A DNA stretch of 38,888 nucleotides from a virus: the UHGV virus genome UHGV-0098678; one strand, 5' to 3'. Shown here one piece after another: positions 1,062 to 37,488 of this stretch. The position numbers were made by a program, and so were the translations under genes. How positions within the stretch are numbered: the stretch's first letter is position 1; the number at the start of each line of letters is the position of its first letter. The notes under the pieces were generated by a model. The model saw nothing but the letters and a program-made list of their open reading frames with translations. It was not told where the DNA came from and did not search any database.

Positions 1062-1076
1062 TAATCAGGAGGAGTC

Positions 1077-1616
1077 ATGAAGAAAGTTTTTCTTTGCGCC
1101 ATCTTAGCCTCCTTAAGCTATCCGGCTATCGCCTCATCATTGCAGGATCAACTCTCGGCTGTCGCAGAAGCGGAACAGCAAGGTAAAAATGAAGAGCAAA
1201 GGCAGCATGACGAATGGGTCGCGGAGCGCAACAGGGAAATCCAGCAAGAGAAGCAACGTCGCGCAAACGCCCAGGCCGCGGCTAATAAAAGAGCGGCAAC
1301 GGCAGCAGCGAATAAGAAAGCTCGTCAGGATAAACTGGACGCCGAAGCCACTGCGGACAAAAAACGCGATCAAAGTTATGAAGATGAGCTACGTAGCTTA
1401 GAGATTCAGAAACAAAAACTGGCGCTGGCGAAAGAAGAAGCCCGCGTTAAGCGCGAAAACGAATTTATCGATCAGGAACTGAAGCACAAAGCTGCGCAAA
1501 CCGATGTGGTGCAATCTGAAGCTGACGCAAACAGAAATATGACTGAAGGCGGTCGCGATCTGATGAAAAGCGTGGGTAAAGCAGAAGAGAATAAATCAGA
1601 TAGCTGGTTTAACTAA
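1077..1616 (+). CDS. secreted Lys/Glu/Ala-rich coiled-coil protein, unknown function
   Basis: Strong SD AGGAGGAG 3-10 nt upstream of ATG 1077; N-terminal signal peptide (MKKVFLCAILASLSYPAIASS); highly charged, probably helical remainder. Confidence 0.6.
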   Translation: MKKVFLCAILASLSYPAIASSLQDQLSAVAEAEQQGKNEEQRQHDEWVAERNREIQQEKQRRANAQAAANKRAATAAANKKARQDKLDAEATADKKRDQSYEDELRSLEIQKQKLALAKEEARVKRENEFIDQELKHKAAQTDVVQSEADANRNMTEGGRDLMKSVGKAEENKSDSWFN

Positions 1617-2308: not shown

Positions 2309-2934
2309 ACCGCCAGCACCTTACTGGCAGTGATGTACCGCGCGCGCCGGTCGTCGATGCCGTTCCGGCCACCATTGATAATCAGAGTTACACGTGCAAT
2401 ATCGCCGGTATACTTCATGCATCCTTTGCTGGCAAAGAACCACGCCGCGCTACGAGCCGCGTATTCGTCCTGCGCCAGCAGTTCAGGACTCTCCAGCAGG
2501 TCAACCTTAAGACCGTTTCCACAGTCACGATAGTTATTCAAACCGGTAATCTGGATAAGTCCGCGACCACGGTAATTCCAGCCATCACCAGAGGCATTGT
2601 TACCCATGCGTTTGCTGTACACCAGATTTGCGATCGCGCGCTGGCGCTCAAGTGGCAATGGTGGCTCACCAGCACGGCGGCCCAGTGCGTTAGCCTGTCC
2701 CTGGGTGAGACGCCCAGCCCGAACGAAGTTAGCCAGTCCGGTGACGCTGTAGTTGAAATTTTCCTGCAACCGGTTGAAGCCACCAGACTCATGCCCGACC
2801 TGAGCAATAAACATTGCCTGATCTTCGGGTTTGCTGATACCAAACTCTTTCATCGCAGAAGTTATATGCGAGAACCAGCGAGCGGCCAGCGCCTCGCTAA
2901 TACCAGCAGCTCGCTGGAATTGTTTAATCTCCAT
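2305..2934 (-). CDS. endolysin, glycoside hydrolase family 19 (chitinase-like) type
   Basis: ATG at 2934 (MEIKQF...); the longer track ORF to 3165 is an upstream extension overlapping the holin. Motif FIAQVGHESGGF resembles the GH19 catalytic signature; position between holin-like genes and Rz. Confidence 0.75.
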   Translation of the reverse strand: MEIKQFQRAAGISEALAARWFSHITSAMKEFGISKPEDQAMFIAQVGHESGGFNRLQENFNYSVTGLANFVRAGRLTQGQANALGRRAGEPPLPLERQRAIANLVYSKRMGNNASGDGWNYRGRGLIQITGLNNYRDCGNGLKVDLLESPELLAQDEYAARSAAWFFASKGCMKYTGDIARVTLIINGGRNGIDDRRARYITASKVLAV

Positions 2935-3232
2935 GTTTAGACCTCGATATTTTGAAAATATGAACAACGTTACCGCGTGTTTTAATAACCGCGGCAAGCA
3001 TGACAGCGTTGATAATGACCTCAGATAAATCCACAGCCATTGGCGTGCGTAACCAGATTGCATAGACGACACGAACAGGAATACTTGCCGCAGCAACAAT
3101 AAGGAAATAAGCAAGCCACCCTCCCCATCTTCGATGTTGAGAGCCGTTACGCCGGAATGTGACAACGCGAATTGCTATGCCAGTACAAATAACTGCATTG
3201 GTGATAAGCAAAAAAAACTCATGCGTTACCAT
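2924..3232 (-). CDS. holin-like membrane protein (holin or antiholin)
   Basis: 102 aa with 2-3 predicted TM segments; ATG at 3232 with GGGGAG upstream; directly precedes and overlaps the endolysin start. Confidence 0.5.
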   Translation of the reverse strand: MVTHEFFLLITNAVICTGIAIRVVTFRRNGSQHRRWGGWLAYFLIVAAASIPVRVVYAIWLRTPMAVDLSEVIINAVMLAAVIKTRGNVVHIFKISRSKHGD

Positions 3233-3623
3233 CGTCTTTTCTCCCCGGAATTAACTCGCGTGGATTATCGGAACGGTGATAGAGCCAGATGCCAATACGC
3301 ACGGCGACAATTGCTGACACGAATGCGCCTGCAGAGAAAACAATCCCTTTTTCAAAAGAGTCCTGCGTGATGGTAGGGATCAGGCTGGCTATGCCGATAA
3401 GAATTGATGCTGCTGGTTTGTAAAAGAGAAGGCCGCAAAGAAAGCTGAGCATCGACAGGAGCACCCGGCGACGGATGGGGTACTCTACTGCAGAGGTAAC
3501 AAAAATTACCGCCCCAGCCAAAGCCCCTAAAGCAACCTCCGGAGGGACACCTGCAATAACCGCAGCAAGAGAACTAACACTAAGCCACTGATTTGAAGTT
3601 TCATTGGTTAGTTGGAATGACAT
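3219..3623 (-). CDS. holin-like membrane protein
   Basis: 134 aa with several hydrophobic helices (LAAVIAGVPPEVALGALAGAVIFV, ILIGIASLIPTI, FSAGAFVSAIVAVRIGIWLY) and a charged C-terminus; first gene of the lysis cassette after the tail fiber. Confidence 0.45.
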   Translation of the reverse strand: MSFQLTNETSNQWLSVSSLAAVIAGVPPEVALGALAGAVIFVTSAVEYPIRRRVLLSMLSFLCGLLFYKPAASILIGIASLIPTITQDSFEKGIVFSAGAFVSAIVAVRIGIWLYHRSDNPRELIPGRKDDGNA

Positions 3624-3695: not shown

Positions 3696-6158
3696 TCAAT
3701 TCCCTGTTAATTGCAAAACTTGCTCTTCCAGCTTTTTAACCCTGCGTCTCATCATCGCAGATTCCAGAATCAGAGCCTCTTCATAACGGATACCGTAACA
3801 TTCACCAGCCTCGACGGCTTCGCGTACCAGAACCTTTGTCTGTATAAGTGGGTAAACTCCTGCAGAATGCTCTTCTTCCGTCACATCCCTGTATTCTGCC
3901 GGGGTCTCATTCCACTTGTCATAACAGATAAATGCCAGTCGTGACACATCTATGCCTTCATTCTGAAATACACTGATAACATGCTGCGCAACTGCACCAA
4001 AGTGCCATCTTGCTCCGTCTTTACCTTTCACTTCGATCCTGTCAAGGTACTGGTATGAAACCCATTCCACTCTTTCCCATGCGTCCAGTATTTTCTCATC
4101 AATAACCTCTGGAGCAGTCTTGAAACGCGCATCGGACAGCACCGTAAACGCTGACTGGGTAAATCCCCCCGACCATGCACGACCAGCCAACCCAAGAGAA
4201 TAAGTATTCGTTGTCGATGGTGTCATGGCTGAATCAGAAAACTGTATATATTCTGAATTTCCAGTAGATATTCGAATATTTCCATTTATTAGCGACATAG
4301 TGCCTTTAGTATTATCACTATTGAATAATTTCAATTGCGAACTTATACCGCCTCCCACAGCCAGAGATACATCGCCTTCAGCAAGCATTCTGAATTTATC
4401 TGCAGAAACAAGCGTCTGGTTAGCAAGGTTAAAATATTTAACCCACCATTCAAAACGCCCTGACATAGTCCCAACGTACTGACCAAGCGCAGGGACGTGA
4501 ACAACATTGCTATTTGTAGTGCCGTCTATACTGGAAATACCAGTCACCGCTGATGCAGAACTCAGAATATTATTTCTGTCACCCGGATGTTTAATTTCAA
4601 CAAAGTTCCTGATACACCCTTCCTCGAAGGTAACCACGCCGGAAGAACTATACATGGGGAATATTGACGCATAATTACTGCGTGCAGCATCTAAGAAACG
4701 AATGGTTGTAGATGTCTGCAGATCTCCTGATTCATTTTTCCCATCACACCCAGTCATTAGAATATTACTGGCAATATTATTATTTCCATGAACGGTGACT
4801 CCGTGCGCCTGCTTTGCGTCCGATTCAGAGTAATCAACCAGCACATTCGAAATCAGGTTACCAGTCCCCTTGCCAACAACTACTGCGGCGTATTTTGGGT
4901 TGTTAGCCATTACACTGCTAATGATATTATTCGTTGGGGCAGTTTCCGTCTCAGTTCCATTGTAAACAACGTGCTGACACTCTTCACCAATAACATTGCT
5001 GACAATGTTATATTTTGCTGCTGTTTTAAGTTCCACTGCACCAAACTGAGGATAATTTCTGGCTATCACACCATCAATTAGCGTATTTTGCGATGAATCA
5101 AAAAGCACACAACCTGCTTTTTTATTATTTGCGAACCCTAAATACTCTCCTCTTATATCTCTAACAATGTAACCTGACGGAATACCATTATTCGGATAAG
5201 CGATCAAGCTAAATCCTGTTCCTCGCGTATTTGTAAATCTGATATTTTTAACCGATACATCATGGCCACCTGAAAATGACACCTGGTGTCCCTGCACACT
5301 ATCATCTGATTTATTTCCCATAATTGTTAGCGTACTAAGCATGCCACCATCGGGCATGTTAAAAACCAGATGATTACCATCTCTGTCATACTGTTTTATC
5401 GTTCCCCCACCTGTTCCGTACAAGCCACAACGTGAAAGAGAAACTAAAGATGTATTGAATACCCCTTCCGGAACAAAAACACTGCTAAACGAATGTAATG
5501 ATTTTGTAAAAGCATCCTTGTTATCATTTAAGATTCCATTTTGAGCTCCAAAATCCTTAATGCTGACACCATCACGCATCTTATCCTGGAACGTTCTGTA
5601 TACCGCTCCAGAACCATACTGAATAAACCAACCAAAACCACCAATAACTCCGGCGATTGCAGCATCGACATAATTACGCATTGAGCGATTATTTACAGCG
5701 TCCTGCTCAAGTGATGGATCGGCAAGGTTAGATATTCTGTTTTGCTTTGCATCGTAATATTTTGCAAGCAAAGATGGTTTCATCAATGCACGTCTGAACC
5801 ACCCAAAACATCGCTGGATCAGCATCGTCAGGTAGTCAAATGCATCCTCATGAACTTCGGGGAAAAATTTTCCCTGATTGCGAAGATCAGTCTCCTGCAC
5901 CACATCAAGCACACGCTCTATCGTGATTCGCCAGCCAGCAGCAAGCGGCGACGGAAGAACCACTGCACCGCCACTATAAGTTCCCGCCCCTGTTACCGTA
6001 TAACCAGCATCCAGCACTAGTTTTGTAACGTTACCGTTAAGGTCAGACACCTGAACAACCAGGTCGGATTTTTTGAAAATACGGAAGGTATACGGAAATG
6101 ATGTCGTAACGCCGTTACCTGTGTATTCGTTGTGGTCAACTTCGGTTGAGACCGTCAT
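3696..6158 (-). CDS. tail fiber / tailspike with T7 gp17-like N-terminal adaptor, central beta-helix-like region and C-terminal S74-type intramolecular chaperone domain
   Basis: 820 aa. N-terminus (YTGNGVTTSFPYTF ... NRISNLADPSLEQDAVNNRSMRNYV) matches the T7 tail-fiber N-terminal domain pattern; C-terminus contains SDARFK and a coiled-coil tail typical of self-cleaving chaperone domains; SD GGAG 8 nt upstream of ATG 6158. Confidence 0.75.
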   Translation of the reverse strand: MTVSTEVDHNEYTGNGVTTSFPYTFRIFKKSDLVVQVSDLNGNVTKLVLDAGYTVTGAGTYSGGAVVLPSPLAAGWRITIERVLDVVQETDLRNQGKFFPEVHEDAFDYLTMLIQRCFGWFRRALMKPSLLAKYYDAKQNRISNLADPSLEQDAVNNRSMRNYVDAAIAGVIGGFGWFIQYGSGAVYRTFQDKMRDGVSIKDFGAQNGILNDNKDAFTKSLHSFSSVFVPEGVFNTSLVSLSRCGLYGTGGGTIKQYDRDGNHLVFNMPDGGMLSTLTIMGNKSDDSVQGHQVSFSGGHDVSVKNIRFTNTRGTGFSLIAYPNNGIPSGYIVRDIRGEYLGFANNKKAGCVLFDSSQNTLIDGVIARNYPQFGAVELKTAAKYNIVSNVIGEECQHVVYNGTETETAPTNNIISSVMANNPKYAAVVVGKGTGNLISNVLVDYSESDAKQAHGVTVHGNNNIASNILMTGCDGKNESGDLQTSTTIRFLDAARSNYASIFPMYSSSGVVTFEEGCIRNFVEIKHPGDRNNILSSASAVTGISSIDGTTNSNVVHVPALGQYVGTMSGRFEWWVKYFNLANQTLVSADKFRMLAEGDVSLAVGGGISSQLKLFNSDNTKGTMSLINGNIRISTGNSEYIQFSDSAMTPSTTNTYSLGLAGRAWSGGFTQSAFTVLSDARFKTAPEVIDEKILDAWERVEWVSYQYLDRIEVKGKDGARWHFGAVAQHVISVFQNEGIDVSRLAFICYDKWNETPAEYRDVTEEEHSAGVYPLIQTKVLVREAVEAGECYGIRYEEALILESAMMRRRVKKLEEQVLQLTGN

Positions 6159-6262: not shown

Positions 6263-6277
6263 TTACCTTTCAGGTAA
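6263..6277. promoter_or_regulatory. 15-bp palindrome TTACC-N5-GGTAA (putative repressor operator)
   Basis: TTACCtttcaGGTAA, extended palindrome aTTACC...GGTAAt at 6262-6278; about 40 bp upstream of the LexA box and antirepressor gene; same core as the site at 24915. Confidence 0.5.
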
Positions 6278-6314: not shown

Positions 6315-6334
6315 TACTGTATAAATATACAGTT
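6315..6334. promoter_or_regulatory. LexA (SOS) box
   Basis: tACTGTataaatatACAGtt: CTGT-N8-ACAG with AT-rich spacer, matching the gammaproteobacterial LexA consensus TACTGTATATATATACAGTA; ends 6 nt before the ATG at 6340. Confidence 0.8.
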
Positions 6335-6339
6335 ATTGC

Positions 6340-6612
6340 ATGGAGAAGATTAAGATGCAGCAGTATCACTATCCACTGGAAGAGGGATTTACCGAAAGGA
6401 TTCACACGCCGGGAGGCGTCAGGTCACTGGTGGAGGGATCGCACTTGATGAAATTACTCCGGGATCTCGATAAGGATGGATTTAATGTCGATGGCCCACT
6501 TGCCGAACTGACTGCACTGATTAACTACGTCACCAGCTCACAGATGTCTATGCAGGATCTGCAAACACATCTCGACTATTGTGCCGAACAATTACGAAAA
6601 CAAACCAGATAA
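6340..6612 (+). CDS. small LexA-controlled antirepressor-like protein (start 6340 or 6355)
   Basis: 90-aa ORF directly behind the LexA box; about 75 aa align with the C-terminal domain of the adjacent Bro-N protein (LMKLLRDLDKDGFNVDGPLAELT vs LMNLLNQLQDDGHDVSGAAAELT; QDLQTH vs RDIQTH). Confidence 0.55.
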   Translation: MEKIKMQQYHYPLEEGFTERIHTPGGVRSLVEGSHLMKLLRDLDKDGFNVDGPLAELTALINYVTSSQMSMQDLQTHLDYCAEQLRKQTR

Positions 6613-6643
6613 GGTTTGAAATTACCAAATGGAGTGCTTATAT

Positions 6644-6658
6644 TTACCTTTGCGGTAA
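6644..6658. promoter_or_regulatory. 15-bp palindrome TTACC-N5-GGTAA (putative operator)
   Basis: TTACCtttgcGGTAA inside a 19-bp perfect palindrome atTTACCtttgcGGTAAat (6642-6660); itself flanked by inverted repeat GGAGTGC/GCACTCC. Confidence 0.45.
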
Positions 6659-6751
6659 ATTTACATTGCACTCCTCTTGTGCCATAGTAATCAGGCACTG
6701 GCAAAATCCAGTGCCGGGATTGGTCTCCCGGATTACTACAGAGGCACATAT

Positions 6752-6771
6752 GCCGCATAAGCGGTTTTTTT
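6752..6771 (+). terminator. weak rho-independent terminator candidate
   Basis: Short GC stem (CCGC ataa GCGG) followed by seven T residues, about 140 nt downstream of the small antirepressor ORF. Confidence 0.3.
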
Positions 6772-6925
6772 ATGTGTAAAGCGCACCTATTCTATGGTGG
6801 GCTGTGTGGGGGCACCGAAAGGTGCGCCGGGTTCCTTTGTAGCCGGTAAGACCAACTCTGCACAGTTCACCACCATCTGATTGGTCTCAGCGGTGGTGAT
6901 TAACCTAACTACAAAGGTGATCGCC

Positions 6926-7618
6926 ATGAATACCAAACCTTCCATCTTTTCCTTTGAGTCATCCTGCCAGATCCGTATGTTCATGATTGACGGAGAACCT
7001 TGGTTTGTCACCAAAGATGTGTGCAATGCTTTGAATATTGATGTTACACAAGCGAGAAAACTTGATAAAAAAGGCTGGAACAAAAAGGGGCTGTATTCAA
7101 TACAGACCCCTGGTGGAATACAAGAACTATCCATCGTTTCAGAATCAGGTCTCTACATCCTTATTCTGCGTTGCAAAGAGGCAATGACAGAGGGAACGAG
7201 AGCATTCAGATTTCTTGAATGGGTTACAGGTGAGGTTCTTCCTCAGATCCGCCGCACCGGAAGTTACATTAAAAACTCGCTCCCGCAGGAAGAACGCATA
7301 AAGATGGTTGCCGACCAGGTAGCCAACGCCACAGCATCAGCAGTGATGCAGGCAATGAAGATAGAGAACAAAACCTACAGTGCCCCACTGAAGCCCGGCT
7401 ACCGCAGCCTGATTCACTCGCCGTCTGGTGTTCTCGGCCTGACGGAGAACTCACTGCTGATGAATCTGCTGAACCAGTTACAGGACGACGGGCACGACGT
7501 ATCGGGCGCGGCGGCGGAGCTGACCACCATGTTCTGCTACATCGTTGGTGTGAGCAAATGCCTGCGTGATATCCAGACGCACGCGGAGTACATCAACGAC
7601 AAGGCAGGGTTCTTCTGA
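6926..7618 (+). CDS. Bro-N domain antirepressor
   Basis: ATG at 6926 with SD AAAGGTGA; N-terminus FSFESSCQIRMFMIDGEPWFVTKDVCNALNI matches the Bro-N/antirepressor fold; C-terminal domain is paralogous to the small ORF at 6340-6612. Confidence 0.75.
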   Translation: MNTKPSIFSFESSCQIRMFMIDGEPWFVTKDVCNALNIDVTQARKLDKKGWNKKGLYSIQTPGGIQELSIVSESGLYILILRCKEAMTEGTRAFRFLEWVTGEVLPQIRRTGSYIKNSLPQEERIKMVADQVANATASAVMQAMKIENKTYSAPLKPGYRSLIHSPSGVLGLTENSLLMNLLNQLQDDGHDVSGAAAELTTMFCYIVGVSKCLRDIQTHAEYINDKAGFF

Positions 7619-7684: not shown

Positions 7685-7699
7685 TTACCTTAAAGGTAA
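7685..7699. promoter_or_regulatory. 15-bp palindrome TTACC-N5-GGTAA (putative operator)
   Basis: TTACCttaaaGGTAA immediately upstream of the SD (AGGAGG) and ATG of the 55-aa ORF at 7712. Confidence 0.45.
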
Positions 7700-7711: not shown

Positions 7712-7879
7712 ATGACAGCGTTGAAAAATCGTACTCAGCACAATGAACAAGCCAAGCAATGCTGGGATGTCATTGGAAAAGTTATGCTTGGTCGCGCAAG
7801 CAAAGAGCGCGACAAGGATATGGTTTACCAGACAGGAACATCTTTTAGCGACTTCAAGGCGGCATTTCGCTCCAAATAG
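7712..7879 (+). CDS. hypothetical small basic protein (55 aa)
   Basis: Not in the ORF track (under 60 aa); ATG 7712 with strong SD AAAGGAGG; translated by hand as MTALKNRTQHNEQAKQCWDVIGKVMLGRASKERDKDMVYQTGTSFSDFKAAFRSK; stop TAG 7877-7879. Confidence 0.45.
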   Translation: MTALKNRTQHNEQAKQCWDVIGKVMLGRASKERDKDMVYQTGTSFSDFKAAFRSK

Positions 7880-19723: not shown

Positions 19724-20046
19724 TACTCACCCCCATTGCCGTACAGGGTTTCAGCCGCTGATTTTTCTACATCCCCGGAAACAGGAGCGATCGCCATATC
19801 AGTGATCTGCAGATCGGCGCTGCGATTAACACCATCGTCAGTTTCTCTGGCAGACAGGCCTCGAATAACAGCCTTTGCAGTTATCATCACTTCTGTTCCG
19901 ACGCCCTGAGGTTGCGCCTTCAGCTTATTCAATGTGTCGTTATTAAGAGTGATGCACAGCCCCCACGGGTATTCATCGCGAGTTCTGGTTTCTCCGCTCT
20001 CATCCTGGTAGCTGTCAGTGCCGGTTTTGAGGTTTACGAGTTCCAT
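19723..20046 (-). CDS. hypothetical structural-module protein
   Basis: ATG at 20046 with SD AGGAG 6 nt upstream (the track ORF begins two codons earlier at a GTG); 107 aa; no recognisable family. Confidence 0.45.
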   Translation of the reverse strand: MELVNLKTGTDSYQDESGETRTRDEYPWGLCITLNNDTLNKLKAQPQGVGTEVMITAKAVIRGLSARETDDGVNRSADLQITDMAIAPVSGDVEKSAAETLYGNGGE

Positions 20047-24824: not shown

Positions 24825-24914
24825 ATCAATGACTCCGTACGCAATTAAATTATTACCAATTTAACCACATATGATTTATTTATCGTAGACAGTTGACATT
24901 TAACGTGCGAATTA

Positions 24915-24929
24915 TTACCTTTCAGGTAA
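24915..24929. promoter_or_regulatory. 15-bp palindrome TTACC-N5-GGTAA (putative operator)
   Basis: TTACCtttcaGGTAA, same core as the site at 6263; a TTGACA hexamer lies 17 nt upstream (24893-24898); in the noncoding gap between the portal-side genes and the tRNA. Confidence 0.45.
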
Positions 24930-25251: not shown

Positions 25252-25328
25252 GTGGCATTAGCTCAGTTGGACAGAGCAACCGCCTTCTAAGCGGTTGGTC
25301 GCAGGTTCGAATCCTGCATGCCACGCCA
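25252..25328 (+). tRNA. tRNA-Arg (anticodon UCU)
   Basis: Hand-folded cloverleaf: acceptor GTGGCAT/ATGCCAC, D-arm GCTC...GAGC, anticodon stem ACCGC/GCGGT with loop CTTCTAA (anticodon TCT), 5-nt variable loop, T-arm GCAGG-TTCGAAT-CCTGC, discriminator G, encoded CCA. Confidence 0.85.
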
Positions 25329-27468: not shown

Positions 27469-28061
27469 TGATTACCATCCTGACGTTCTTTGAGTCGCTT
27501 CCTGGCTGCTGCTATGCGATCAGCAATTGTCACATTCACATTAACATCCAGACGTTCTTTGAATGCGTTGACATCAACATGCTTACCAATCAGCTCAAGG
27601 TTCTTCACCTTGTCAGGCCATTTAATTTTTTTGAGGATTGTCTCTATTGAATCCTCGTTCATGTTCATGATGGTCGATGACAGATCAAAGCCACTAAGCG
27701 TAGTGCGCCAGATTTTCGGCCACTCACGGATTGGTTTAAGGCTCCCATCGTCGTTGAGGATGTCGATCACGTCCATCTGGTCGATCTCCACCAGGCGCAT
27801 GAGAACGTAATCAGCACTGACACGCATTCGTTTGTTGCGCTCCTCCATCAACTCGGCAATCCGTTTCTGAATGCGTTCATCGCGCATCATGACACTGGCT
27901 TTAACTGCCGCTGTATTTGGGGAGAATCCTGCGTTAATCGCAGCCTGAGTCTGGTTTTCAGGCGTTTTGATGTATGACTGGCAATAAGCCTCCTGCATTG
28001 CTGTGAGCGGCTTAAATTGCGTTGATTTGCGTTTATAGGTTTTAGGTTCAGCAGGCATCAT
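27465..28061 (-). CDS. terminase small subunit (start uncertain)
   Basis: Motif block AMQEAYCQSYIKTPENQTQAAINAGFSPNTAAVKASVMMRDERIQKRIAELMEE matches the TerS DNA-binding domain pattern; start taken at ATG 28061 (MMPAEPK...) because the track ORF begins at an upstream TTG with a hydrophobic extension. Confidence 0.6.
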   Translation of the reverse strand: MMPAEPKTYKRKSTQFKPLTAMQEAYCQSYIKTPENQTQAAINAGFSPNTAAVKASVMMRDERIQKRIAELMEERNKRMRVSADYVLMRLVEIDQMDVIDILNDDGSLKPIREWPKIWRTTLSGFDLSSTIMNMNEDSIETILKKIKWPDKVKNLELIGKHVDVNAFKERLDVNVNVTIADRIAAARKRLKERQDGNQ

Positions 28062-28078
28062 AACTACCGTGGTAATTG

Positions 28079-28093
28079 TTACCGTTGTGGTAA
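28079..28093. promoter_or_regulatory. 15-bp palindrome TTACC-N5-GGTAA (putative operator)
   Basis: TTACCgttgtGGTAA about 18 nt upstream of the proposed TerS start, just downstream of a - strand terminator hairpin. Confidence 0.45.
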
Positions 28094-28103
28094 TAATACC
28101 ATG

Positions 28104-28130
28104 CAAAATAAAGCCGCCATAGTTGGCGGC
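28104..28130 (-). terminator. rho-independent terminator on the - strand upstream of TerS (tR'-like position)
   Basis: On the - strand: GCCGCC aacuau GGCGGC followed by UUUAUUUU; located between the Cys-rich small gene (28180-28518) and TerS. Confidence 0.55.
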
Positions 28131-28179
28131 AGTATTCAAAATCCATCAAATTCATCATGCATAATCTACTCGTGACATG

Positions 28180-31904: not shown

Positions 31905-31919
31905 TTACCTCTAAGGTAA
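31905..31919. promoter_or_regulatory. 15-bp palindrome TTACC-N5-GGTAA (putative operator)
   Basis: TTACCtctaaGGTAA overlapping the SD of the 31557-31901 gene. Confidence 0.45.
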
Positions 31920-31966
31920 TTAAAAACCACATAAGACACGAAATCAATAGAGTTTAGAATATTTTA

Positions 31967-31981
31967 TTACCCAACAGGTAA
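31967..31981. promoter_or_regulatory. 15-bp palindrome TTACC-N5-GGTAA (putative operator)
   Basis: TTACCcaacaGGTAA, 62 bp from the previous site, in the intergenic region downstream of the P-like gene. Confidence 0.45.
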
Positions 31982-33631: not shown

Positions 33632-33832
33632 TCAGCTTGAATATTGTGGGGAGGAATTAATCATGATCTGCTTAATCTCTGCCCTGATGCGACGGTTTGA
33701 TTCCATGGTGCACTCAACACAGTGTCCGTTGTAAACCCAGCGTTCACTGTCATGTCCGTGCTTACATGGTTTTCCGGTGTAGTAGCGTTTAAGTCCGCGC
33801 TTTGCGGCATCAATACGTGTAATGATTTCCAT
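33632..33832 (-). CDS. hypothetical zinc-ribbon protein (CII-position gene)
   Basis: ATG 33832 (track ORF starts at upstream TTG); 66 aa with CKHGH...HCVEC motif; located between the Cro-like gene and the O-like gene. Confidence 0.4.
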   Translation of the reverse strand: MEIITRIDAAKRGLKRYYTGKPCKHGHDSERWVYNGHCVECTMESNRRIRAEIKQIMINSSPQYSS

Positions 33833-33912
33833 GGTAAGCCCTGTTATTAGTATTTGGATTACGGTTATTTTGTGCTGACACAAAAAAAAGATCAACCAGA
33901 TTTGGTTTTTTA

Positions 33913-33927
33913 TTACCTTTGAGGTAC
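33913..33927. promoter_or_regulatory. imperfect TTACC-N5-GGTAC operator-like palindrome
   Basis: TTACCtttgaGGTAC (one mismatch in the right half) just upstream of the zinc-ribbon gene. Confidence 0.3.
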
Positions 33928-33929
33928 GG

Positions 33930-33962
33930 ATAGATATGAAAAGACCGCCGGGTGGCGGTCTA
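33930..33962 (-). terminator. terminator candidate after the Cro-like gene (tR1-like position)
   Basis: 8-bp stem AGACCGCC/GGCGGTCT with 4-nt loop; on the - strand it is followed by UUUCAUAU. Confidence 0.4.
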
Positions 33963-33982
33963 CAGAGGGTTGTAGCTGGATA

Positions 33983-34213
33983 TCATGAGTAGAAGAAGTA
34001 TGCCAGTTCTGCTTTTGAGCGCAGCCATTGTCTTGTTTTACAGGCTTTAAAAAGCCCATTCATCAATACTTTACCTGGCATTTTGCGCTTACCTGTTAAG
34101 TGAGTCTGGATATAGTGACTCGTCGTTCCGGCTTCCTGTGCGAAGGCTTCACGCTCATCCGGAGTAAGTGCAAGCCAGTGCTTTTTGAAATCGAAATGTC
34201 CGTTATCGCTCAT
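33983..34213 (-). CDS. Cro-like HTH regulator
   Basis: 76 aa, first gene of the - strand early operon divergent from the repressor; HTH-like segment AFAQEAGTTSHYIQTHLTGKRKMPG. Confidence 0.5.
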   Translation of the reverse strand: MSDNGHFDFKKHWLALTPDEREAFAQEAGTTSHYIQTHLTGKRKMPGKVLMNGLFKACKTRQWLRSKAELAYFFYS

Positions 34214-34280
34214 AGCTATTGCCTGATATTTATTTCAGATAATAAATATTCACCCATAAGGTAACAAAAATCAAGGATAG

Positions 34281-34295
34281 TTACCTATGGGGTGC
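34281..34295. promoter_or_regulatory. imperfect operator TTACC-N5-GGTGC in the repressor/Cro intergenic region
   Basis: TTACCtatggGGTGC, centre 17 bp from the adjacent perfect site. Confidence 0.4.
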
Positions 34296-34297
34296 AT

Positions 34298-34312
34298 TTA
34301 CCTGTTGGGTAA
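34298..34312. promoter_or_regulatory. operator TTACC-N5-GGTAA in the repressor/Cro intergenic region (OR-like)
   Basis: TTACCtgttgGGTAA between the divergent Cro-like (start 34213) and repressor (start 34368) genes. Confidence 0.55.
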
Positions 34313-34367
34313 TATTGCTTTAAATTGAATCATCTACTGATTCATATATGAGGCGATTTTCCAGAAA

Positions 34368-34952
34368 ATGAAAAGTATCCAGGACGTCCGCAGGCAAAAT
34401 CTCAACGACTTGATCGACCGTGAATTCAATGGTGTTCAGACGCGGATGGCAGAAAAACTTGGAACTCAGGCAAATCTGGTAAACCGCTGGGCTCTTGGCA
34501 AGAAGGTTATCGGCGACCAGGTTGCACGAAAAATTGAAGCTGCCGCCAATAAACCCCGTAACTGGCTTGATATTGATCGTTCGCTTTCTCAGGAGGGTTT
34601 TCAGCCTGTCGGACCAAGCGACATTGGTCAACTGGCGGCTCACAACCTGGAACGCTGGATGAGCGAAAGCCGCGACCTTTCAACACAGGGAAAACTTCAC
34701 CGCGCATCCGGCGTAGCCCAGGTGACAATCAGCCGCCTGTTAAACAATGAGGTCAGCGTTTCCATTTCCACCCTGGAGAATGTTGCATCCGCATTCGGGC
34801 GTCATGGCTATGAATTACTGATTCACCCGCACGACCCTGCGACCATCAACTATGATCGCTCGCGCTACGCATTGTTACCCGAAACCGAGAAAGCAAAGAT
34901 CGAAAGTTACATTGAATTTGTCATCAACCAGAACGAAAAAAGCAAACAATAA
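34368..34952 (+). CDS. phage repressor-like protein with two HTH domains and no S24 peptidase domain
   Basis: 194 aa; first HTH around QTRMAEKLGTQANLVNRWALGKK, second around LHRASGVAQVTISRLLNNEVSVSISTLENVASAFG; no Ala-Gly/Ser-Lys autocleavage module; sits between operator clusters like lambda cI. Confidence 0.55.
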   Translation: MKSIQDVRRQNLNDLIDREFNGVQTRMAEKLGTQANLVNRWALGKKVIGDQVARKIEAAANKPRNWLDIDRSLSQEGFQPVGPSDIGQLAAHNLERWMSESRDLSTQGKLHRASGVAQVTISRLLNNEVSVSISTLENVASAFGRHGYELLIHPHDPATINYDRSRYALLPETEKAKIESYIEFVINQNEKSKQ

Positions 34953-34972
34953 AACCATAGTTTTCAGTAAGT

Positions 34973-34997
34973 AAGCCGCCTCATGGCGGCTTTTTTA
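34973..34997 (+). terminator. rho-independent terminator after the repressor gene
   Basis: Stem AGCCGCC tcat GGCGGCT followed by TTTTTT. Confidence 0.7.
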
Positions 34998-35009
34998 TTG
35001 CCAGATAGA

Positions 35010-35024
35010 TTACCTTACGGGTAA
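35010..35024. promoter_or_regulatory. operator TTACC-N5-GGTAA (OL-like)
   Basis: TTACCttacgGGTAA downstream of the repressor terminator. Confidence 0.5.
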
Positions 35025-35043
35025 TTTTTTTAACTCATATCTA

Positions 35044-35072
35044 TTGACACCAAACCAAATAAGCATAATTAT
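35044..35072 (+). promoter_or_regulatory. candidate sigma70 promoter (pL-like) for the + strand early operon
   Basis: TTGACA (35044-35049), 17-nt spacer, AATTAT (35067-35072); its -10 abuts the operator at 35075. Confidence 0.4.
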
Positions 35073-35074
35073 TA

Positions 35075-35089
35075 CCCCAACGGTAACAG
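35075..35089. promoter_or_regulatory. operator TTACC-N5-GGTAA (OL-like)
   Basis: TTACCccaacGGTAA immediately downstream of the candidate -10; a further half-site GAGGTAAC follows at 35094-35101. Confidence 0.5.
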
Positions 35090-35105
35090 ACCGAGGTAAC
35101 AAGTT

Positions 35106-35258
35106 ATGCAGTGGAAAATCATCAACGGTTGGTACTGCGTTACTGCATGCGGATTCATGAGCTGGAAGTTCCGCACCTTACAGGAAGGCATTAAGTGGGC
35201 TTTCGTCAGCAAAGAAGCTCGCGATGTGGCCAACGATAACGAGATATGGGAGGGCTGA
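35106..35258 (+). CDS. hypothetical 50-aa protein, first ORF of the pL-like operon
   Basis: Hand-translated: MQWKIINGWYCVTACGFMSWKFRTLQEGIKWAFVSKEARDVANDNEIWEG; GAGG about 9 nt upstream; stop is 2 nt before the next ATG. Confidence 0.3.
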   Translation: MQWKIINGWYCVTACGFMSWKFRTLQEGIKWAFVSKEARDVANDNEIWEG

Positions 35259-35260
35259 TA

Positions 35261-35560
35261 ATGAACGTTAATCAGCAGAAAAATCTTCAAAAAATCATGC
35301 TGGCATTCGACAAGGACTACCGCCTGTCAGAACAGCTATATGACCGACAAGTTGAACTGATTGAGAGCATCCGACTTCATCAACTGTCCTCAACTTTCGA
35401 CGTTGTAACAGGCAAAGGCGTTCGTCAGGAAGTACTGGAGGCTGCTAAAGACAGCCCTGAGTTCGAAGAACTGATGGATGCCTATCGGCGAGAGGCAATG
35501 GCAATTATCGCCCGCTGGGATCTGGCGGATCAGCTTGATGGGCAGAGGGACGCGGCATGA
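35261..35560 (+). CDS. hypothetical protein
   Basis: ATG 35261 with SD GGGAGGG (track ORF starts 5 codons earlier); 99 aa, helical; ATGA overlap with the exonuclease gene. Confidence 0.45.
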   Translation: MNVNQQKNLQKIMLAFDKDYRLSEQLYDRQVELIESIRLHQLSSTFDVVTGKGVRQEVLEAAKDSPEFEELMDAYRREAMAIIARWDLADQLDGQRDAA

Positions 35561-36456
35561 TGCGGAACGCTGGAATCATGGATAGAACAAAATACATCGG
35601 AGGAAGCGATGTTGCAGGGATTCTTGGAATTAGCCCATGGCGCACCCCGCTTGAGGTTTATCTGGATAAGGTCCAGCCACGTGTCAAACCAGTAGACCCA
35701 AGCAAGCAGAAAGTTTTCACGCGTGGCCAGCGTATGGAGCCATACGTAATAGACCTGCTTTCTGAGGAAACAGGGATGGAAATCGTTCATCGCGGAAACC
35801 GCTATATCCACCGTGATTACGATTTTATTGCAGCTGAGATCGATGCAGAAGCAGCGTCAGGCGAGAACATTGAGATCAAAACAGTTAGTCCGTTCAAAGC
35901 CAAAGAATGGGGAGAAATCCAGACAGATGCAATTCCTGTGCATTACACGGCCCAGGCCATGCACGGGTTGATGGTTACAAACAAACAGGTATGCGTTTTC
36001 GGTGTGCTTATCGGTGGCGACGACTTCCGAATCTATCGGGTTGAGCGTGATGAAGAAACTATCCAGGCGATCTTAGAAAAAGAAATCGCTTTCTGGGACC
36101 GAGTGAAAAATCTTAACCCGCCGGAAGCTACCAGCGTAAGCGATGTATCGCTGATGTTTGAGAAAGATGCCGGGACAAGTATCGAGGCTGACGGAAAGGC
36201 ACTCGCACTATTCAACAATCTACGAGACATGAAATCACGCAGAAAATCACTGGAAGAAGAAATAGCTATATCAGAAGAGAAGCTGAAGATGTACATGCAA
36301 GAGCACTCAGTCCTGACCCTGGACGGAAAGCCGCTCTGCACATGGAAATCTCAGATCAGCAACAGATTCGACCAGAAGCTATTCCAGTCAGTACACCCTG
36401 AGTTATTCGAAAAATTCAAAACAACAACGACACAACGCGTCTTCAGAATGAAGTAA
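35557..36456 (+). CDS. YqaJ-like viral recombinase-associated exonuclease
   Basis: N-terminal YIGGSDVAGILGISPWRTPLEVY matches the YqaJ/lambda-Exo-like nuclease start; paired with a downstream RecT gene. Confidence 0.75.
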   Translation: MMRNAGIMDRTKYIGGSDVAGILGISPWRTPLEVYLDKVQPRVKPVDPSKQKVFTRGQRMEPYVIDLLSEETGMEIVHRGNRYIHRDYDFIAAEIDAEAASGENIEIKTVSPFKAKEWGEIQTDAIPVHYTAQAMHGLMVTNKQVCVFGVLIGGDDFRIYRVERDEETIQAILEKEIAFWDRVKNLNPPEATSVSDVSLMFEKDAGTSIEADGKALALFNNLRDMKSRRKSLEEEIAISEEKLKMYMQEHSVLTLDGKPLCTWKSQISNRFDQKLFQSVHPELFEKFKTTTTQRVFRMK

Positions 36457-36465
36457 GGAGAAAAA

Positions 36466-37488
36466 ATGTCTATCAATGCACTTAAGGCAGCGGCTACCGG
36501 TAACCAAGTTGCACATCATAATGAGAAACCAACAACTCTGGCCGGACTTCTGGCAGACCCAAAAATTAAAGCTCAGATGGCTTTGGCACTTCCAAAGCAC
36601 ATGACAGCAGACCGTCTGGCGCGCATAGCAACCACAGAGATCAGAAAGGTTCCAAAACTTGCATCATGCGACCAAGCCAGCTTCCTGGGGGCAATTATGC
36701 AATGTGCCCAATTGGGTCTTGAACCAGGCGGAGCTCTTGGACACGCTTACCTGATACCGTTCGACAAACGCCAGAAAGTAAATGGAAGATGGGAAACCGT
36801 ATCTACAGAAGCACAGCTGATTATCGGCTATCGCGGAATGATTGACCTTGCCCGCCGCTCTGGGCAGATCCTGAGTATCTCGGCTCGTACCGTACATACA
36901 AACGACAAATTCAGCTACTCATACGGCCTGGAAGAAACGCTCGAGCATTTACCTTGCGAAACAGGTGACAGCGGAGAATTAACGCACGTTTACGCCGTTG
37001 CACGACTGAAAGATGGCGGAGTCCAATTTGAAGTTATGAGCCGGGCAGACGTTGAGAAAGTTCGTGCACTGAGCAAAGCCGGTAGCAGTGGCCCATGGGT
37101 TGATCACTTCGATGAGATGGCTAAAAAAACAGTAATTCGCCGACTGTTCAAATATCTTCCTGTTTCTATTGAAATGCAGAAGGCTGTTGTTATGGATGAG
37201 CGCGCTGAAGCTGGACTTAGCCAAGATAACGCAGCTGTTATCACTGGTGAATATTCCGTAGTTGACGATGAGCGTCAACACCTGTCGCCAATTTCAGATT
37301 CAGAACGAGAAGAAGCTCGAGAATATATCATCGCGATACTTAATAGCCTGGATCCATCTGCTGAAGATGCAAAAACGATGTTCAAGCGCGCTGAAAATGA
37401 AATTAACACCATGGCTGAAAAGCTCGGTGATGAATATCACCAAAAATTCATGATGACGCTTAACGATATGCGTCCAGAATTCGAGTAA
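36466..37488 (+). CDS. recT: RecT-family single-strand annealing protein
   Basis: 340 aa; strong SD TAAGGAG; conserved RecT-like core (...LIIGYRGMIDLARRSGQ...VYAVARLKDGG...KKTVIRRLFKYLP...). Confidence 0.8.
   Translation: MSINALKAAATGNQVAHHNEKPTTLAGLLADPKIKAQMALALPKHMTADRLARIATTEIRKVPKLASCDQASFLGAIMQCAQLGLEPGGALGHAYLIPFDKRQKVNGRWETVSTEAQLIIGYRGMIDLARRSGQILSISARTVHTNDKFSYSYGLEETLEHLPCETGDSGELTHVYAVARLKDGGVQFEVMSRADVEKVRALSKAGSSGPWVDHFDEMAKKTVIRRLFKYLPVSIEMQKAVVMDERAEAGLSQDNAAVITGEYSVVDDERQHLSPISDSEREEAREYIIAILNSLDPSAEDAKTMFKRAENEINTMAEKLGDEYHQKFMMTLNDMRPEFE

What the first reader, a model, noticed from the sequence alone, without database searches (positions are those of the whole stretch)
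33930..35105. Lambda-like immunity architecture with repressor gene bracketed by operator clusters
Layout is: Cro-like gene (- strand), intergenic region with one perfect and one imperfect operator spaced 17 bp centre to centre, repressor gene (+ strand), intrinsic terminator, two further operators flanking a TTGACA-N17-AATTAT promoter, then the early + strand operon. A tR1-like hairpin follows the Cro-like gene. This is a textbook bistable switch assembled from a non-lambda operator sequence.
Basis: partly seen in the sequence, partly recalled or inferred. Interest (0 to 1): 0.45.

Follow-up and report, generated by a model that had tools for sequence, protein, structure and literature searches.

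The report
Known phiV10/epsilon15-type phage immunity switch
This is the real but already characterised lysis-lysogeny control region of a common phiV10/epsilon15-like E. coli prophage: its layout resembles phage lambda, but its repressor does not cut itself and is instead switched off by a small SOS-controlled antirepressor, with binding sites spread over the whole phage genome.

Summary
The window is a phiV10-like Uetakevirus prophage, 98% identical to phiV10, and the same region sits in 540 of 5426 complete E. coli genomes. The operator is TTACC-N5-GGTAA: 10 perfect copies against 0.02 expected.

The 194-aa protein is a homologue of the solved Salmonella phage SPC32H Rep (5D50_A, E 3.5e-42). 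It is 99.5% identical to vB_EcoP_ZX5 ORF21, which blocks lytic growth when overexpressed. It has no S24 self-cleavage domain. The window also encodes the SPC32H-type small antirepressor (E 1.6e-47) behind a perfect LexA box.

The same operator core lies at equivalent positions in epsilon15, SPC32H, Tyrion and BUCT711, and the epsilon15 GenBank record already annotates such sites as repressor-binding. Across 71 natural haplotypes, half-site positions vary at 2 of 50 and central spacer positions at 12 of 25.

Verdict: observation confirmed; the "lambda-like textbook switch" reading is partly supported (layout yes, mechanism and regulon no). Already known; low interest.

The parts
33942..33961 (-). 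Intrinsic terminator after the Cro-like gene ('tR1-like')
   Evidence: 8-bp stem, 6 GC pairs, tail TTTCATATCT. The equivalent feature in phiV10 is annotated as a putative rho-independent terminator.
33913..33927 (.). Imperfect operator-like site TTACCTTTGAGGTAC (1 mismatch), just downstream of the terminator and upstream of the 66-aa gene and the replication genes
   Evidence: 1-mismatch sites occur at the equivalent place in Tyrion (35365) and BUCT711 (6032), but not in epsilon15 or SPC32H. Its right half varies in the population (33926 A/G), so it is the least certain site.
33983..34213 (-). Cro-like HTH regulator gene, 76 aa
   Evidence: PHROG 35 'transcriptional repressor', E 5.6e-13; no Pfam hit. 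The AF2 model (pLDDT 88) is a five-helix HTH. Its best PDB matches are the YdaS N-terminal domain 8CO2 (TM 0.65), the 434 repressor DNA-binding domain and the P22 c2 DNA-binding domain. The HTH segment AGTTSHYIQ-HLT is invariant in five phages.
34239..34274 (-). Promoter for the cro-like gene (PR-like). Two overlapping candidates: TTGTTA(34267..34262)-N17-TATTAT(34244..34239), and TTGATT(34274..34269)-N17-GAATAT(34251..34246)
   Evidence: The first candidate comes (9/12). The second is read from the sequence. Its -35 lies in the block AAAAATCAA, which is invariant in all five phages. No transcription start data are available.
34250..34264 (.).
   Evidence: Equivalent 1-mismatch sites occur in epsilon15, SPC32H and Tyrion. 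Half-sites are invariant in 71 haplotypes.
34281..34295 (.). O_R2, TTACCTATGGGGTGC (2 mismatches)
   Evidence: The equivalent site is perfect in epsilon15, SPC32H and BUCT711, and always lies 17 bp from O_R3. Half-sites are invariant, while 4 of 5 spacer positions are polymorphic.
34298..34312 (.). O_R3, TTACCTGTTGGGTAA (perfect), nearest the repressor gene
   Evidence: The GGTAATAT block is invariant in five phages. No variable position in 71 haplotypes.
34368..34952 (+). Rep, the prophage repressor (194 aa): N-terminal HTH DNA-binding domain, middle HTH-like dimerisation domain, C-terminal tetramerisation/Ant-binding domain
   Evidence: PDB 5D50_A matches over the full length, E 3.5e-42. Domain scheme from PMC9986798. 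99.5% identical to ZX5 ORF21, which was tested by overexpression. 60 of 63 polymorphic sites fall at codon position 3.
34973..34998 (+). Intrinsic terminator of the repressor transcript
   Evidence: Annotated in phiV10.
35010..35024 (.). O_L distal, TTACCTTACGGGTAA (perfect); centre about -62 relative to the expected PL start
   Evidence: Conserved in five phages. Only spacer positions vary.
35044..35072 (+). PL-like early promoter, TTGACA-N17-AATTAT
   Evidence: 10/12. CTATTGAC and ATTATTACC are invariant in five phages.
35072..35086 (.). O_L proximal, TTACCCCAACGGTAA (perfect). It starts at the last base of the -10 element and covers the expected transcription start
35106..37488 (+). Start of the early operon driven by PL: 50-aa and 104-aa proteins of unknown function, YqaJ-type exonuclease, RecT
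31905..31981 (-). Second promoter-operator module with the same geometry as PL: operator 31981..31967, TTGATT(31947..31942)-N17-TTTAAT(31924..31919), operator 31919..31905. It lies upstream of the DUF1064/resolvase-like gene
   Evidence: plus direct reading of the sequence. The 62-63-bp operator pair is present at both loci in all five phages, 10 of 10 modules.
28061..28093 (.). Tandem pair of sites 18 bp apart (28079-28093 perfect; 28061-28075 with 2 mismatches), after a terminator and at the start of the small terminase gene
   Evidence: Equivalent 18-bp pairs occur in epsilon15 (12/30) and Tyrion (67/85). The epsilon15 site 12-27 is annotated as repressor-binding.
24915..24929 (.). Perfect site upstream of the portal/head gene block
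   Evidence: The equivalent epsilon15 site 2931-2947 is annotated as repressor-binding.
7685..7699 (.). Perfect site immediately upstream of the ribosome-binding site of a 55-aa gene (7712..7879)
6616..6658 (+). Promoter TTGAAA-N17-TATATT whose last -10 base is the first base of perfect operator 6644-6658. It drives an isrK-like sRNA, a C4 antisense RNA and the Bro-N antirepressor gene
6263..6277 (.). Perfect site in the divergent region between the tail-fibre/lysis genes and the ant gene
   Evidence: The equivalent epsilon15 site 19895-19911 is annotated as repressor-binding.
6031..6045 (.). 1-mismatch site inside the 5' end of the tail-fibre gene; the only site that lies in coding DNA
   Evidence: Function uncertain.
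6317..6332 (.). LexA box CTGTATAAATATACAG, 8-23 nt upstream of the ant start codons
   Evidence: 3 pattern matches in the window against 0.53 expected. This one lies in the ant promoter region.
6355..6612 (+). Small antirepressor Ant (85 aa; an alternative start at 6340 gives 90 aa)
   Evidence: PDB 5D50_E 'Anti-repressor protein', E 1.6e-47, aligned over residues 2-84.

Best explanation
This is the primary immunity region of a phiV10/epsilon15-like (Uetakevirus) temperate podovirus prophage. It runs a Rep-Ant switch of the Salmonella phage SPC32H type.

How Rep most likely works: Rep (194 aa) binds 15-bp palindromes, TTACC-N5-GGTAA, through its N-terminal HTH, whose recognition helix NLVNRW is invariant in the family. 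By analogy with SPC32H, Rep acts as a tetramer that contacts two palindromes at once.

At OR there are three sites. O_R1 lies in the core of the cro-side promoter and should shut it. O_R2 and O_R3 form a tandem pair 17 bp apart next to the rep gene. They probably provide cooperative binding and autoregulation of rep.

At OL, two sites 62 bp apart bracket PL. The proximal site starts at the last base of the -10 element and covers the start site, so it should block the exo/RecT early operon.

The same sites guard other transcription units: an identical 62-bp module before the DUF1064 gene, a tandem pair before the terminase genes, and single sites before the head genes, between ant and the tail-fibre gene, and at the promoter of an sRNA/antirepressor module. 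Lysogeny therefore silences most units directly rather than through a cascade.

Induction does not involve repressor self-cleavage. DNA damage removes LexA from a perfect SOS box at the ant promoter, and Ant binds the Rep C-terminal domain and takes the tetramer off the DNA. The 76-aa HTH protein most likely plays the Cro role at the same operators.

Shown here: anatomy, enrichment, conservation, selection on the half-sites, and homology to the solved Rep and Ant. Taken from papers: repression by the near-identical ZX5 protein, and the tetramer/Ant mechanism in SPC32H. Inferred: which protein sits on which site, the transcription starts, rep autoregulation, and the Cro function.
For: Identity: 98% DNA identity to phiV10, PAS61 and ZX5. 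The region is present in 540 of 5426 complete E. coli genomes.

Rep: full-length match to 5D50_A, E 3.5e-42, and to 5D4Z. No S24 domain. 99.5% identical to ZX5 ORF21. Overexpressing ORF21 removed free phage and cut endolysin and holin mRNA by 99.99% and 99.97% (PMC9782041). For SPC32H, Rep binds palindromic DNA as a tetramer and Ant breaks the tetramer (PMC9638917). Its domain order is DNA-binding, dimerisation, tetramerisation (PMC9986798).

Ant: match to 5D50_E, E 1.6e-47, with a perfect LexA box directly upstream.

Operators: 10 perfect sites against 0.02 expected. It is the only enriched inverted dyad in the window. 12 of 13 sites lie in the roughly 13% of the window that is non-coding. 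The same core occurs 13-18 times (up to 1 mismatch) at equivalent positions in epsilon15, SPC32H, Tyrion and BUCT711, whose Rep proteins are only 43-78% identical. The epsilon15 record annotates seven of these sites as 'protein_bind: repressor'.

Conservation: operators and PL hexamers are conserved blocks in otherwise diverged intergenic DNA. In 71 haplotypes, half-site positions vary at 2 of 50, spacer positions at 12 of 25 and other non-coding positions at 63 of 300 (Fisher p = 1.2e-5 for half-sites against spacers).

Distant relative: a Pseudomonas phage cI with a related N-terminal domain joined to an S24 domain is bracketed by TTACC-N4-GGTAA sites.

Geometry: the -10 element abuts the operator identically at PL, at 6616-6658 and at 31947-31905 (and direct reading).
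Against: There is no binding or transcription-start data for this phage. I could not open the primary SPC32H papers or the epsilon15 genome paper. The exact SPC32H operator sequence and the LexA control of ant therefore rest on secondary summaries, a GenBank annotation and my own recollection.

Because the operator core and both recognition helices are invariant across the family, there is no co-variation to tie the sites to Rep rather than to the Cro-like protein.

No convincing sigma-70 promoter for rep was found between O_R3 and the start codon.

The 6031 and 33913 sites are imperfect and less conserved. The ZX5 study used overexpression and tested the large Bro-type antirepressor, not the small Ant.
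Confidence: 0.85

Rival explanations
1. A true lambda-type CI/Cro switch: a dimeric CI-like repressor that is inactivated by RecA-stimulated self-cleavage, with control confined to OR and OL.
For: The gene order and the OR / repressor / terminator / OL-PL layout match lambda. Distant relatives of the N-terminal domain are fused to S24 peptidase domains.
Against: There is no Peptidase_S24 domain, and the C-terminal two thirds align with the SPC32H Rep dimerisation and tetramerisation domains. An SPC32H-type Ant with a LexA box is present. Eight further operator sites lie outside OR and OL.
Confidence: 0.03
2. The palindromes are mainly the targets of the 76-aa Cro-like protein or another phage regulator (PerC-like or AlpA-like), and Rep binds elsewhere or differently.
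For: The Cro-like HTH is also invariant across the family, so conservation alone cannot assign the sites. There is no binding data for this phage.
Against: The epsilon15 curators assign the sites to the repressor. SPC32H Rep is reported to bind palindromic sites as a tetramer. A Pseudomonas cI with a related N-terminal domain has the same half-sites around its own gene, and a replication module rather than a homologue of this Cro-like protein lies beside it. Only one dyad family exists in the window, so Rep has no other candidate site.
Confidence: 0.07
3. The sites outside the immunity region are not promoter operators. They act as transcription roadblocks, like the mycobacteriophage L5 stoperators, or as anchor points for Rep-mediated looping.
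For: Several lie just after terminators or at ribosome-binding sites without a strong promoter match (28061-28093, 24915, 7685). Genome-wide dispersed repressor sites are the L5 pattern (my own knowledge).
Against: At three loci the site abuts a good -10 element in exactly the PL geometry (and direct reading of 31947-31905). The sites are palindromic, so they have no orientation, whereas L5 stoperators are asymmetric and depend on orientation (my own knowledge).
Confidence: 0.2

Closest known systems
Rep-Ant lytic switch of Salmonella phage SPC32H (Kim & Ryu 2013; Kim et al. 2016; PDB 5D50, 5D4Z)
   Same: Rep is homologous over its full length (E 3.5e-42; 43% identity overall, 53% in the DNA-binding domain). 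Ant is homologous (E 1.6e-47). Gene order is the same, as are the TTACC-N5-GGTAA sites at equivalent positions, including the 17-bp tandem pair at OR and the 62-bp pairs. A LexA box lies at ant.
   Different: The middle OR operator is degenerate here (2 mismatches) but perfect in SPC32H. OL has two sites here and three in SPC32H and epsilon15. This phage also carries an sRNA/C4/Bro-type antirepressor module under an operator, which is absent from SPC32H and epsilon15.
Epsilon15 immunity region and its annotated repressor-binding sites (GenBank AY150271.2)
   Same: The same operator core is spread genome-wide at the same kinds of position, and seven sites are annotated 'protein_bind: repressor'.
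   Different: The epsilon15 record does not annotate the three OR sites or the second member of the 62-bp pair at 35969, which the motif search finds. The spacer sequences differ.
Escherichia phages phiV10 and vB_EcoP_ZX5
   Same: Essentially the same sequence, 98% DNA identity and a 99.5% identical repressor. phiV10 annotates the repressor ('two helix-turn-helix motifs') and both terminators. ZX5 ORF21 was tested as a repressor.
   Different: Neither the phiV10 record nor the ZX5 paper defines operators, and neither mentions the small Ant or its LexA box.
Lambda / 434 / P22 immC (CI-Cro, OR/OL)
   Same: Divergent repressor and cro-type genes around a three-site OR. OL/PL lies downstream of the repressor and drives recombination genes. 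A terminator follows cro. Replication genes (DnaT-like, lambda P-like) sit on the cro side.
   Different: No S24 self-cleavage domain. The repressor is a tetramer with an antirepressor-binding domain. The operators are 15-bp sites with a free 5-bp centre, present at 13 places. No N-like antiterminator, cII or cIII was recognised.
LexA-controlled antirepressor induction (coliphage 186 Tum; Gifsy phages, Lemire et al. 2011, PMC3121763)
   Same: A non-cleavable repressor is inactivated by a small protein whose gene carries an SOS box.
   Different: The repressor and antirepressor families are unrelated. No homology to them was seen in the searches run here.
P1/P7 immI (C4 antisense RNA-ant) and the Gifsy-1 isrK locus
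   Same: Rfam C4 and isrK matches lie directly upstream of a Bro-N antirepressor gene.
   Different: Here the module's promoter carries a Rep-type operator, and the C-terminal part of the antirepressor is a paralogue of the small Ant.

Membership tests
SPC32H-type Rep-Ant switch (Uetakevirus) | Repressor homologous to Rep over its DNA-binding, dimerisation and tetramerisation/Ant-binding domains | tested here: met
   5D50_A E 3.5e-42 over residues 1-190; 5D4Z (Rep 92-198) E 3.6e-20. Invariant residues occur in all three domains across five phages.
SPC32H-type Rep-Ant switch (Uetakevirus) | Repressor lacks a LexA/CI-type self-cleavage domain | tested here: met
   Only HTH families were found by Pfam, and no Peptidase_S24. 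Cleavage itself was not assayed.
SPC32H-type Rep-Ant switch (Uetakevirus) | Small Ant antirepressor encoded by the phage | tested here: met
   The 85-aa ORF at 6355..6612 matches 5D50_E, E 1.6e-47.
SPC32H-type Rep-Ant switch (Uetakevirus) | ant promoter overlapped by a LexA box | tested here: met
   CTGTATAAATATACAG at 6317-6332, immediately upstream of ant. That this is the defining arrangement in SPC32H rests on my recollection of Kim & Ryu 2013, which is not held.
SPC32H-type Rep-Ant switch (Uetakevirus) | Palindromic operators shared with the reference phage | tested here: met
   TTACC-N5-GGTAA lies at equivalent positions in the SPC32H genome and in the window.
SPC32H-type Rep-Ant switch (Uetakevirus) | Rep binds DNA as a tetramer, and Ant disassembles it | not testable with these tools
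   Known for SPC32H only, from secondary summaries.
Lambdoid CI/Cro immunity region | Divergent repressor and cro genes around a multi-site OR, with OL/PL beyond the repressor gene | tested here: met
Lambdoid CI/Cro immunity region | CI-type repressor with a C-terminal S24 self-cleavage and dimerisation domain | tested here: not met
Lambdoid CI/Cro immunity region | Operators restricted to OR and OL | tested here: not met
   8 of the 13 sites lie elsewhere in the genome.
Lambdoid CI/Cro immunity region | N-type antiterminator as the first PL gene, with nut sites, plus CII/CIII establishment functions | tested here: inconclusive
   The first PL genes and the 66-aa gene after the terminator match only PHROGs of unknown function. 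No dedicated nut-site search was run.
Cro (functional class: small lytic-side HTH repressor) | Small HTH protein transcribed divergently from the repressor gene | tested here: met
   76 aa. The AF2 model is a five-helix HTH resembling YdaS, 434 and P22 c2 DNA-binding domains. The Foldseek E-values of 0.5-1 are not significant on their own; probability 0.95, TM 0.65. PHROG 35, E 5.6e-13.
Cro (functional class: small lytic-side HTH repressor) | Binds the same operators as the repressor with a different order of preference and turns down repressor synthesis | not testable with these tools
   Inference only.

The most novel reading that the evidence does not exclude
Two features seen here may not have been described in print.

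(1) All Uetakevirus immunity groups sampled, from E. coli, Salmonella, Klebsiella and Enterobacter, keep one invariant operator core and invariant Rep and Cro-like recognition helices, although Rep has diverged to 43% identity. The genus may therefore have a single immunity specificity rather than the usual mosaic of heteroimmune types. In that case variation would be confined to the hypervariable 5-bp operator centres.

(2) The operators come in two fixed geometries: tandem pairs 17-18 bp apart, and pairs 62 bp apart bracketing a promoter (10 of 10 modules). Both would fit the two DNA-binding heads of one Rep tetramer. One tetramer per transcription unit could then silence the whole prophage directly.
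Probability: 0.35. Interest if true: 0.35.

Novelty: already known. Interest (0 to 1): 0.15.

Why it matters
It matters little as a discovery. The phage is sequenced many times over. A near-identical repressor has been tested. The family's repressor-antirepressor complex has a crystal structure. The same binding sites are annotated in epsilon15.

The practical value is a clean operator and promoter map for a prophage carried by about one in ten complete E. coli genomes, including O157 strains. The map shows that induction should run through LexA and Ant rather than through repressor cleavage. It also flags a second, sRNA-controlled antirepressor module under Rep control.

Tried and rejected
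1. Primary papers: I tried to read the epsilon15 genome paper and both SPC32H papers (PMC2698709, PMC4983836, PMC3807360). None is held. I relied instead on secondary summaries, the GenBank annotation and PDB matches.

2. Co-variation between the repressor recognition helix and the operator: this was not possible, because both are invariant in all relatives found. The viral-contig scan returned only 99-100% identical repressors. I used those for a polymorphism test instead.

3. A promoter for rep: no sigma-70-like match lies between O_R3 and the ATG. The candidates TAATAT (34310-34315, invariant in five phages) and TAAATT (34321-34326) lack a credible -35 element, so the promoter is left unassigned.

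4. The 'terminator' at 35102..35069 on the minus strand: rejected as an artefact of the palindromic operator plus a nearby GGTAAC repeat.

5. The plus-strand promoter match at 24886-24915: it points against the flanking genes, so it was not taken as a real promoter.

6. Pfam and NCBIfam gave nothing for the Cro-like protein. A profile search of PDB sequences gave only E 0.43. The Cro-like call therefore rests on PHROGs, the predicted fold and the gene's position.
Full report
WHAT THE WINDOW IS. The 2 kb around the finding is 97-98% identical to Escherichia phages phiV10, vB_EcoP_PAS61, vB_EcoP_ZX5 and others of the genus Uetakevirus, the epsilon15-like temperate podoviruses. The 1176-bp span of the finding occurs in 540 of 5426 complete E. 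coli genomes, almost always on the chromosome, and has one 100% match. It is therefore a very common prophage. The phiV10 record already annotates the 194-aa gene as 'putative transcriptional repressor, two helix-turn-helix motifs' and marks both hairpins as terminators.

CHECK OF THE OBSERVATION. Every listed element is present.
- The Cro-like ORF is at 33983..34213 (minus strand) and the repressor ORF at 34368..34952 (plus strand).
- Terminators lie at 33961..33942 (minus) and 34973-34992 (plus), and the promoter TTGACA-N17-AATTAT is at 35044-35072.
- The operator is TTACC-N5-GGTAA. It is perfect at 34298-34312, 35010-35024 and 35072-35086. A 2-mismatch copy at 34281-34295 lies 17 bp, centre to centre, from the first of these.
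- Chance is excluded. There are 10 perfect copies in the window against 0.02 expected, and 13 copies with up to one mismatch against 0.54 expected. In a de novo count of all inverted 5-mer dyads, this is the only enriched one, 10 copies against a maximum of 2-3 in shuffles.

- OR has a third site, TCACCCATAAGGTAA, at 34250-34264. It lies inside the cro-side promoter under either of two readings: TTGTTA-N17-TATTAT, or TTGATT-N17-GAATAT read from the sequence. The -35 of the second reading lies in the block AAAAATCAA, which is invariant in five phages.
- The motif is not confined to the immunity region. Further sites are at 33913 (just after the terminator that follows cro), 31967 and 31905, 28079 (with a 2-mismatch partner at 28061), 24915, 7685, 6644, 6263 and 6031.
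- Twelve of the thirteen sites lie in non-coding DNA, which is at most about 13% of the window. By my arithmetic the binomial probability of that is of the order of 1e-10.
- The sites sit at the heads of transcription units: the DUF1064/resolvase gene, the terminase genes, the portal/head block, a 55-aa gene, an sRNA/antirepressor module, and the divergent region between ant and the tail-fibre/lysis genes.

THE PROTEINS: REP. The repressor matches the solved SPC32H Rep over its whole length (5D50_A, E 3.5e-42; 5D4Z, E 3.6e-20). Pfam finds only HTH families and no S24 peptidase. According to PMC9986798, SPC32H Rep has an N-terminal DNA-binding domain, a middle dimerisation domain and a C-terminal tetramerisation domain that also binds the antirepressor. 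The 'second HTH' at residues 106-147 is therefore the dimerisation domain.

PMC9638917 summarises Kim et al. 2016. Rep binds palindromic sites as a tetramer. The two DNA-binding domains on one palindrome come from different dimers. A tetrameric Ant binds two Rep dimers and breaks the tetramer.

The protein here is 99.5% identical to ZX5 ORF21. Overexpressing ORF21 abolished free phage and cut endolysin and holin transcripts by 99.99% and 99.97% (PMC9782041).

THE PROTEINS: ANT. An 85-aa ORF at 6355..6612 matches the SPC32H Ant chain (5D50_E, E 1.6e-47). A perfect LexA box, CTGTATAAATATACAG, sits at 6317-6332 just upstream of it. As I recall Kim & Ryu 2013, which is not held, LexA control of ant is how that switch senses DNA damage.

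THE PROTEINS: CRO-LIKE. The 76-aa protein has no Pfam or NCBIfam match. It belongs to a narrow, unannotated enterobacterial family of 48 clusters. It does match PHROG 35 'transcriptional repressor' at E 5.6e-13. Its AlphaFold model (pLDDT 88) is a five-helix HTH. The best structural neighbours are the YdaS N-terminal domain (TM 0.65), the 434 repressor DNA-binding domain and the P22 c2 DNA-binding domain. The Foldseek E-values of 0.5-1 are weak, as is usual for so short a domain. 'Cro-like' is thus reasonable but rests on fold, position and analogy.

COMPARATIVE EVIDENCE THAT THE SITES ARE FUNCTIONAL. Rep homologues fall into four groups: phiV10 type; Tyrion/BUCT554 at 76-78% identity; Klebsiella phages at 45%; and epsilon15/SPN1S/SPC32H at 43%.

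All four groups have the same TTACC-N5-GGTAA core, 13-18 copies per genome with up to one mismatch against about 0.5 expected, at equivalent positions. The epsilon15 GenBank record annotates seven of them as 'protein_bind: repressor'.

The geometry is stereotyped. A tandem pair 17 bp apart lies at OR. A pair 18 bp apart lies before the small terminase gene. Pairs 62-63 bp apart bracket a promoter at two loci per genome, in 10 of 10 modules.

In alignments of the otherwise diverged OR and OL regions, the conserved blocks are the operator half-sites, the PL -35 (CTATTGAC) and the -10/operator junction (ATTATTACC). The recognition helix NLVNRW of Rep and the HTH AGTTSHYIQ-HLT of the Cro-like protein are invariant. 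This fits the invariant operator, but it removes any chance of a co-variation test.

POPULATION EVIDENCE. Eighty IMG/VR loci carry 99-100% identical Rep. From them I extracted 71 distinct haplotypes of 33900-35130. Results:
- In the five OR/OL operators, half-site positions are variable at 2 of 50 and central spacer positions at 12 of 25 (Fisher p = 1.2e-5).
- Other non-coding positions are variable at 63 of 300.
- The degenerate half of O_R2 is also invariant.
- In rep, 60 of 63 variable sites are at third codon positions.

This is the signature of selection on the half-sites with a free centre.

A DISTANT RELATIVE. A Pseudomonas phage cI has an N-terminal domain 39% identical to that of Rep, joined to a classical S24 domain. 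It is bracketed by TTACC-N4-GGTAA sites, two upstream and one downstream of its gene. This DNA-binding domain and its half-site therefore seem to go together. The Uetakevirus Rep looks like a CI-type DNA-binding domain whose self-cleaving C-terminus has been exchanged for an antirepressor-sensing tetramerisation module.

MECHANISM. Steps marked 'inferred' were not shown here.
1. In a lysogen, Rep tetramers occupy the sites.
2. O_R1 blocks the cro-side promoter. O_R2/O_R3 give cooperative binding and probably autoregulate rep (inferred; no rep promoter could be assigned).
3. The proximal OL site, which starts at the last base of the -10 element, blocks PL. The distal site 62 bp upstream, about six helical turns away, is the second contact of the same tetramer (inferred).
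4. The same geometry recurs at TTGATT-N17-TTTAAT before the DUF1064 gene, and at TTGAAA-N17-TATATT (6616-6644) before the sRNA/antirepressor module (and direct reading).
5. DNA damage removes LexA from ant, Ant strips Rep from the DNA, and the Cro-like protein then holds the lytic state (inferred).

COMPARISON AND VERDICT. In layout this region resembles lambda. In mechanism and family it is a member of the SPC32H/epsilon15 Rep-Ant system. Tested features that define a lambdoid CI switch are not met: there is no S24 domain, and the operators are not confined to OR and OL. The system, the phage and the operator motif are all already in the public record, so I score novelty as 'already known' and interest as low.

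The most novel reading left open has two parts: a single immunity specificity across the genus, and one-tetramer-per-unit direct silencing through two fixed operator geometries. I found no paper stating either, but I could not read the primary papers.

Noticed in passing
window 6616-7618 (+): A secondary immunity module under a Rep-type operator. The promoter TTGAAA-N17-TATATT abuts operator 6644-6658. It is followed by an isrK-like sRNA (6695-6771, 74.7 bits) with its own terminator, a C4 antisense RNA (6790-6877, 78.6 bits), and a Bro-N antirepressor gene (6926-7618). The arrangement resembles P1/P7 immI and the Gifsy-1 isrK locus. It is absent from epsilon15 and SPC32H.
   Followed up: partly
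window 6926-7618 (+) versus 6355-6612 (+): The C-terminal 80 residues of the 230-aa Bro-N antirepressor are a paralogue of the small SPC32H-type Ant (42% identity over 74 aa; both match PHROG 450). The phage therefore carries two Ant-domain proteins: one under LexA control, the other under Rep/sRNA control. The 'anti-repressor' tested in the ZX5 paper is the large one.
   Followed up: partly
window 34250-35086 (operator centres): The 5-bp centres of the operators are more polymorphic than other non-coding DNA (14 of 30 against 63 of 300 positions, p = 0.003), while the half-sites are almost invariant. This may simply reflect the absence of constraint, or it may be tuning of site affinity.
   Followed up: partly
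window 31905-31981 and 35010-35086; L003-L006: The module of operator, 19 nt, -35 element, 17 nt, then a -10 element fused to a second operator is duplicated within each genome. Its operator-to-operator spacing of 62-63 bp is kept in all 10 modules examined in five phages.
   Followed up: partly
window 25252-25328 (+): A tRNA-Arg (anticodon TCT) lies between the terminase and head genes, on the strand opposite the flanking late genes. SPC32H has a tRNA-Arg at the equivalent place.
   Followed up: no
window 33632-33832 (-): The 66-aa protein after the cro terminator carries a CxH...CxxC zinc-ribbon-like motif (PHROG 1081, function unknown; epsilon15 gp40). It sits where lambda has cII, but nothing ties it to that role.
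   Followed up: no
window 28064-28139 (-): The longest ORF for the small terminase gene starts at 28139, as annotated in phiV10. That start lies upstream of a terminator-like hairpin and of the two operator sites. By comparison with epsilon15, whose sites lie upstream of the start, the real start is more likely the ATGATG at about 28064.
   Followed up: no
window 543-1616 (+) and 1811-3623 (-): The lysis cassette (holin, class I chitinase-like endolysin, DUF2514 spanin) directly follows the tail-fibre gene on the same strand. There is no O-antigen acetylase gene between them, unlike phiV10. Two plus-strand cargo genes follow: a glycine-zipper/TraT-like lipoprotein and a DUF5384 protein.
   Followed up: no
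L087 1921-2838 (Pseudomonas phage PseuP_224): A classical S24-type cI with an N-terminal domain related to that of Rep is flanked by TTACC-N4-GGTAA sites: the same half-site with one base less between the halves.
   Followed up: partly
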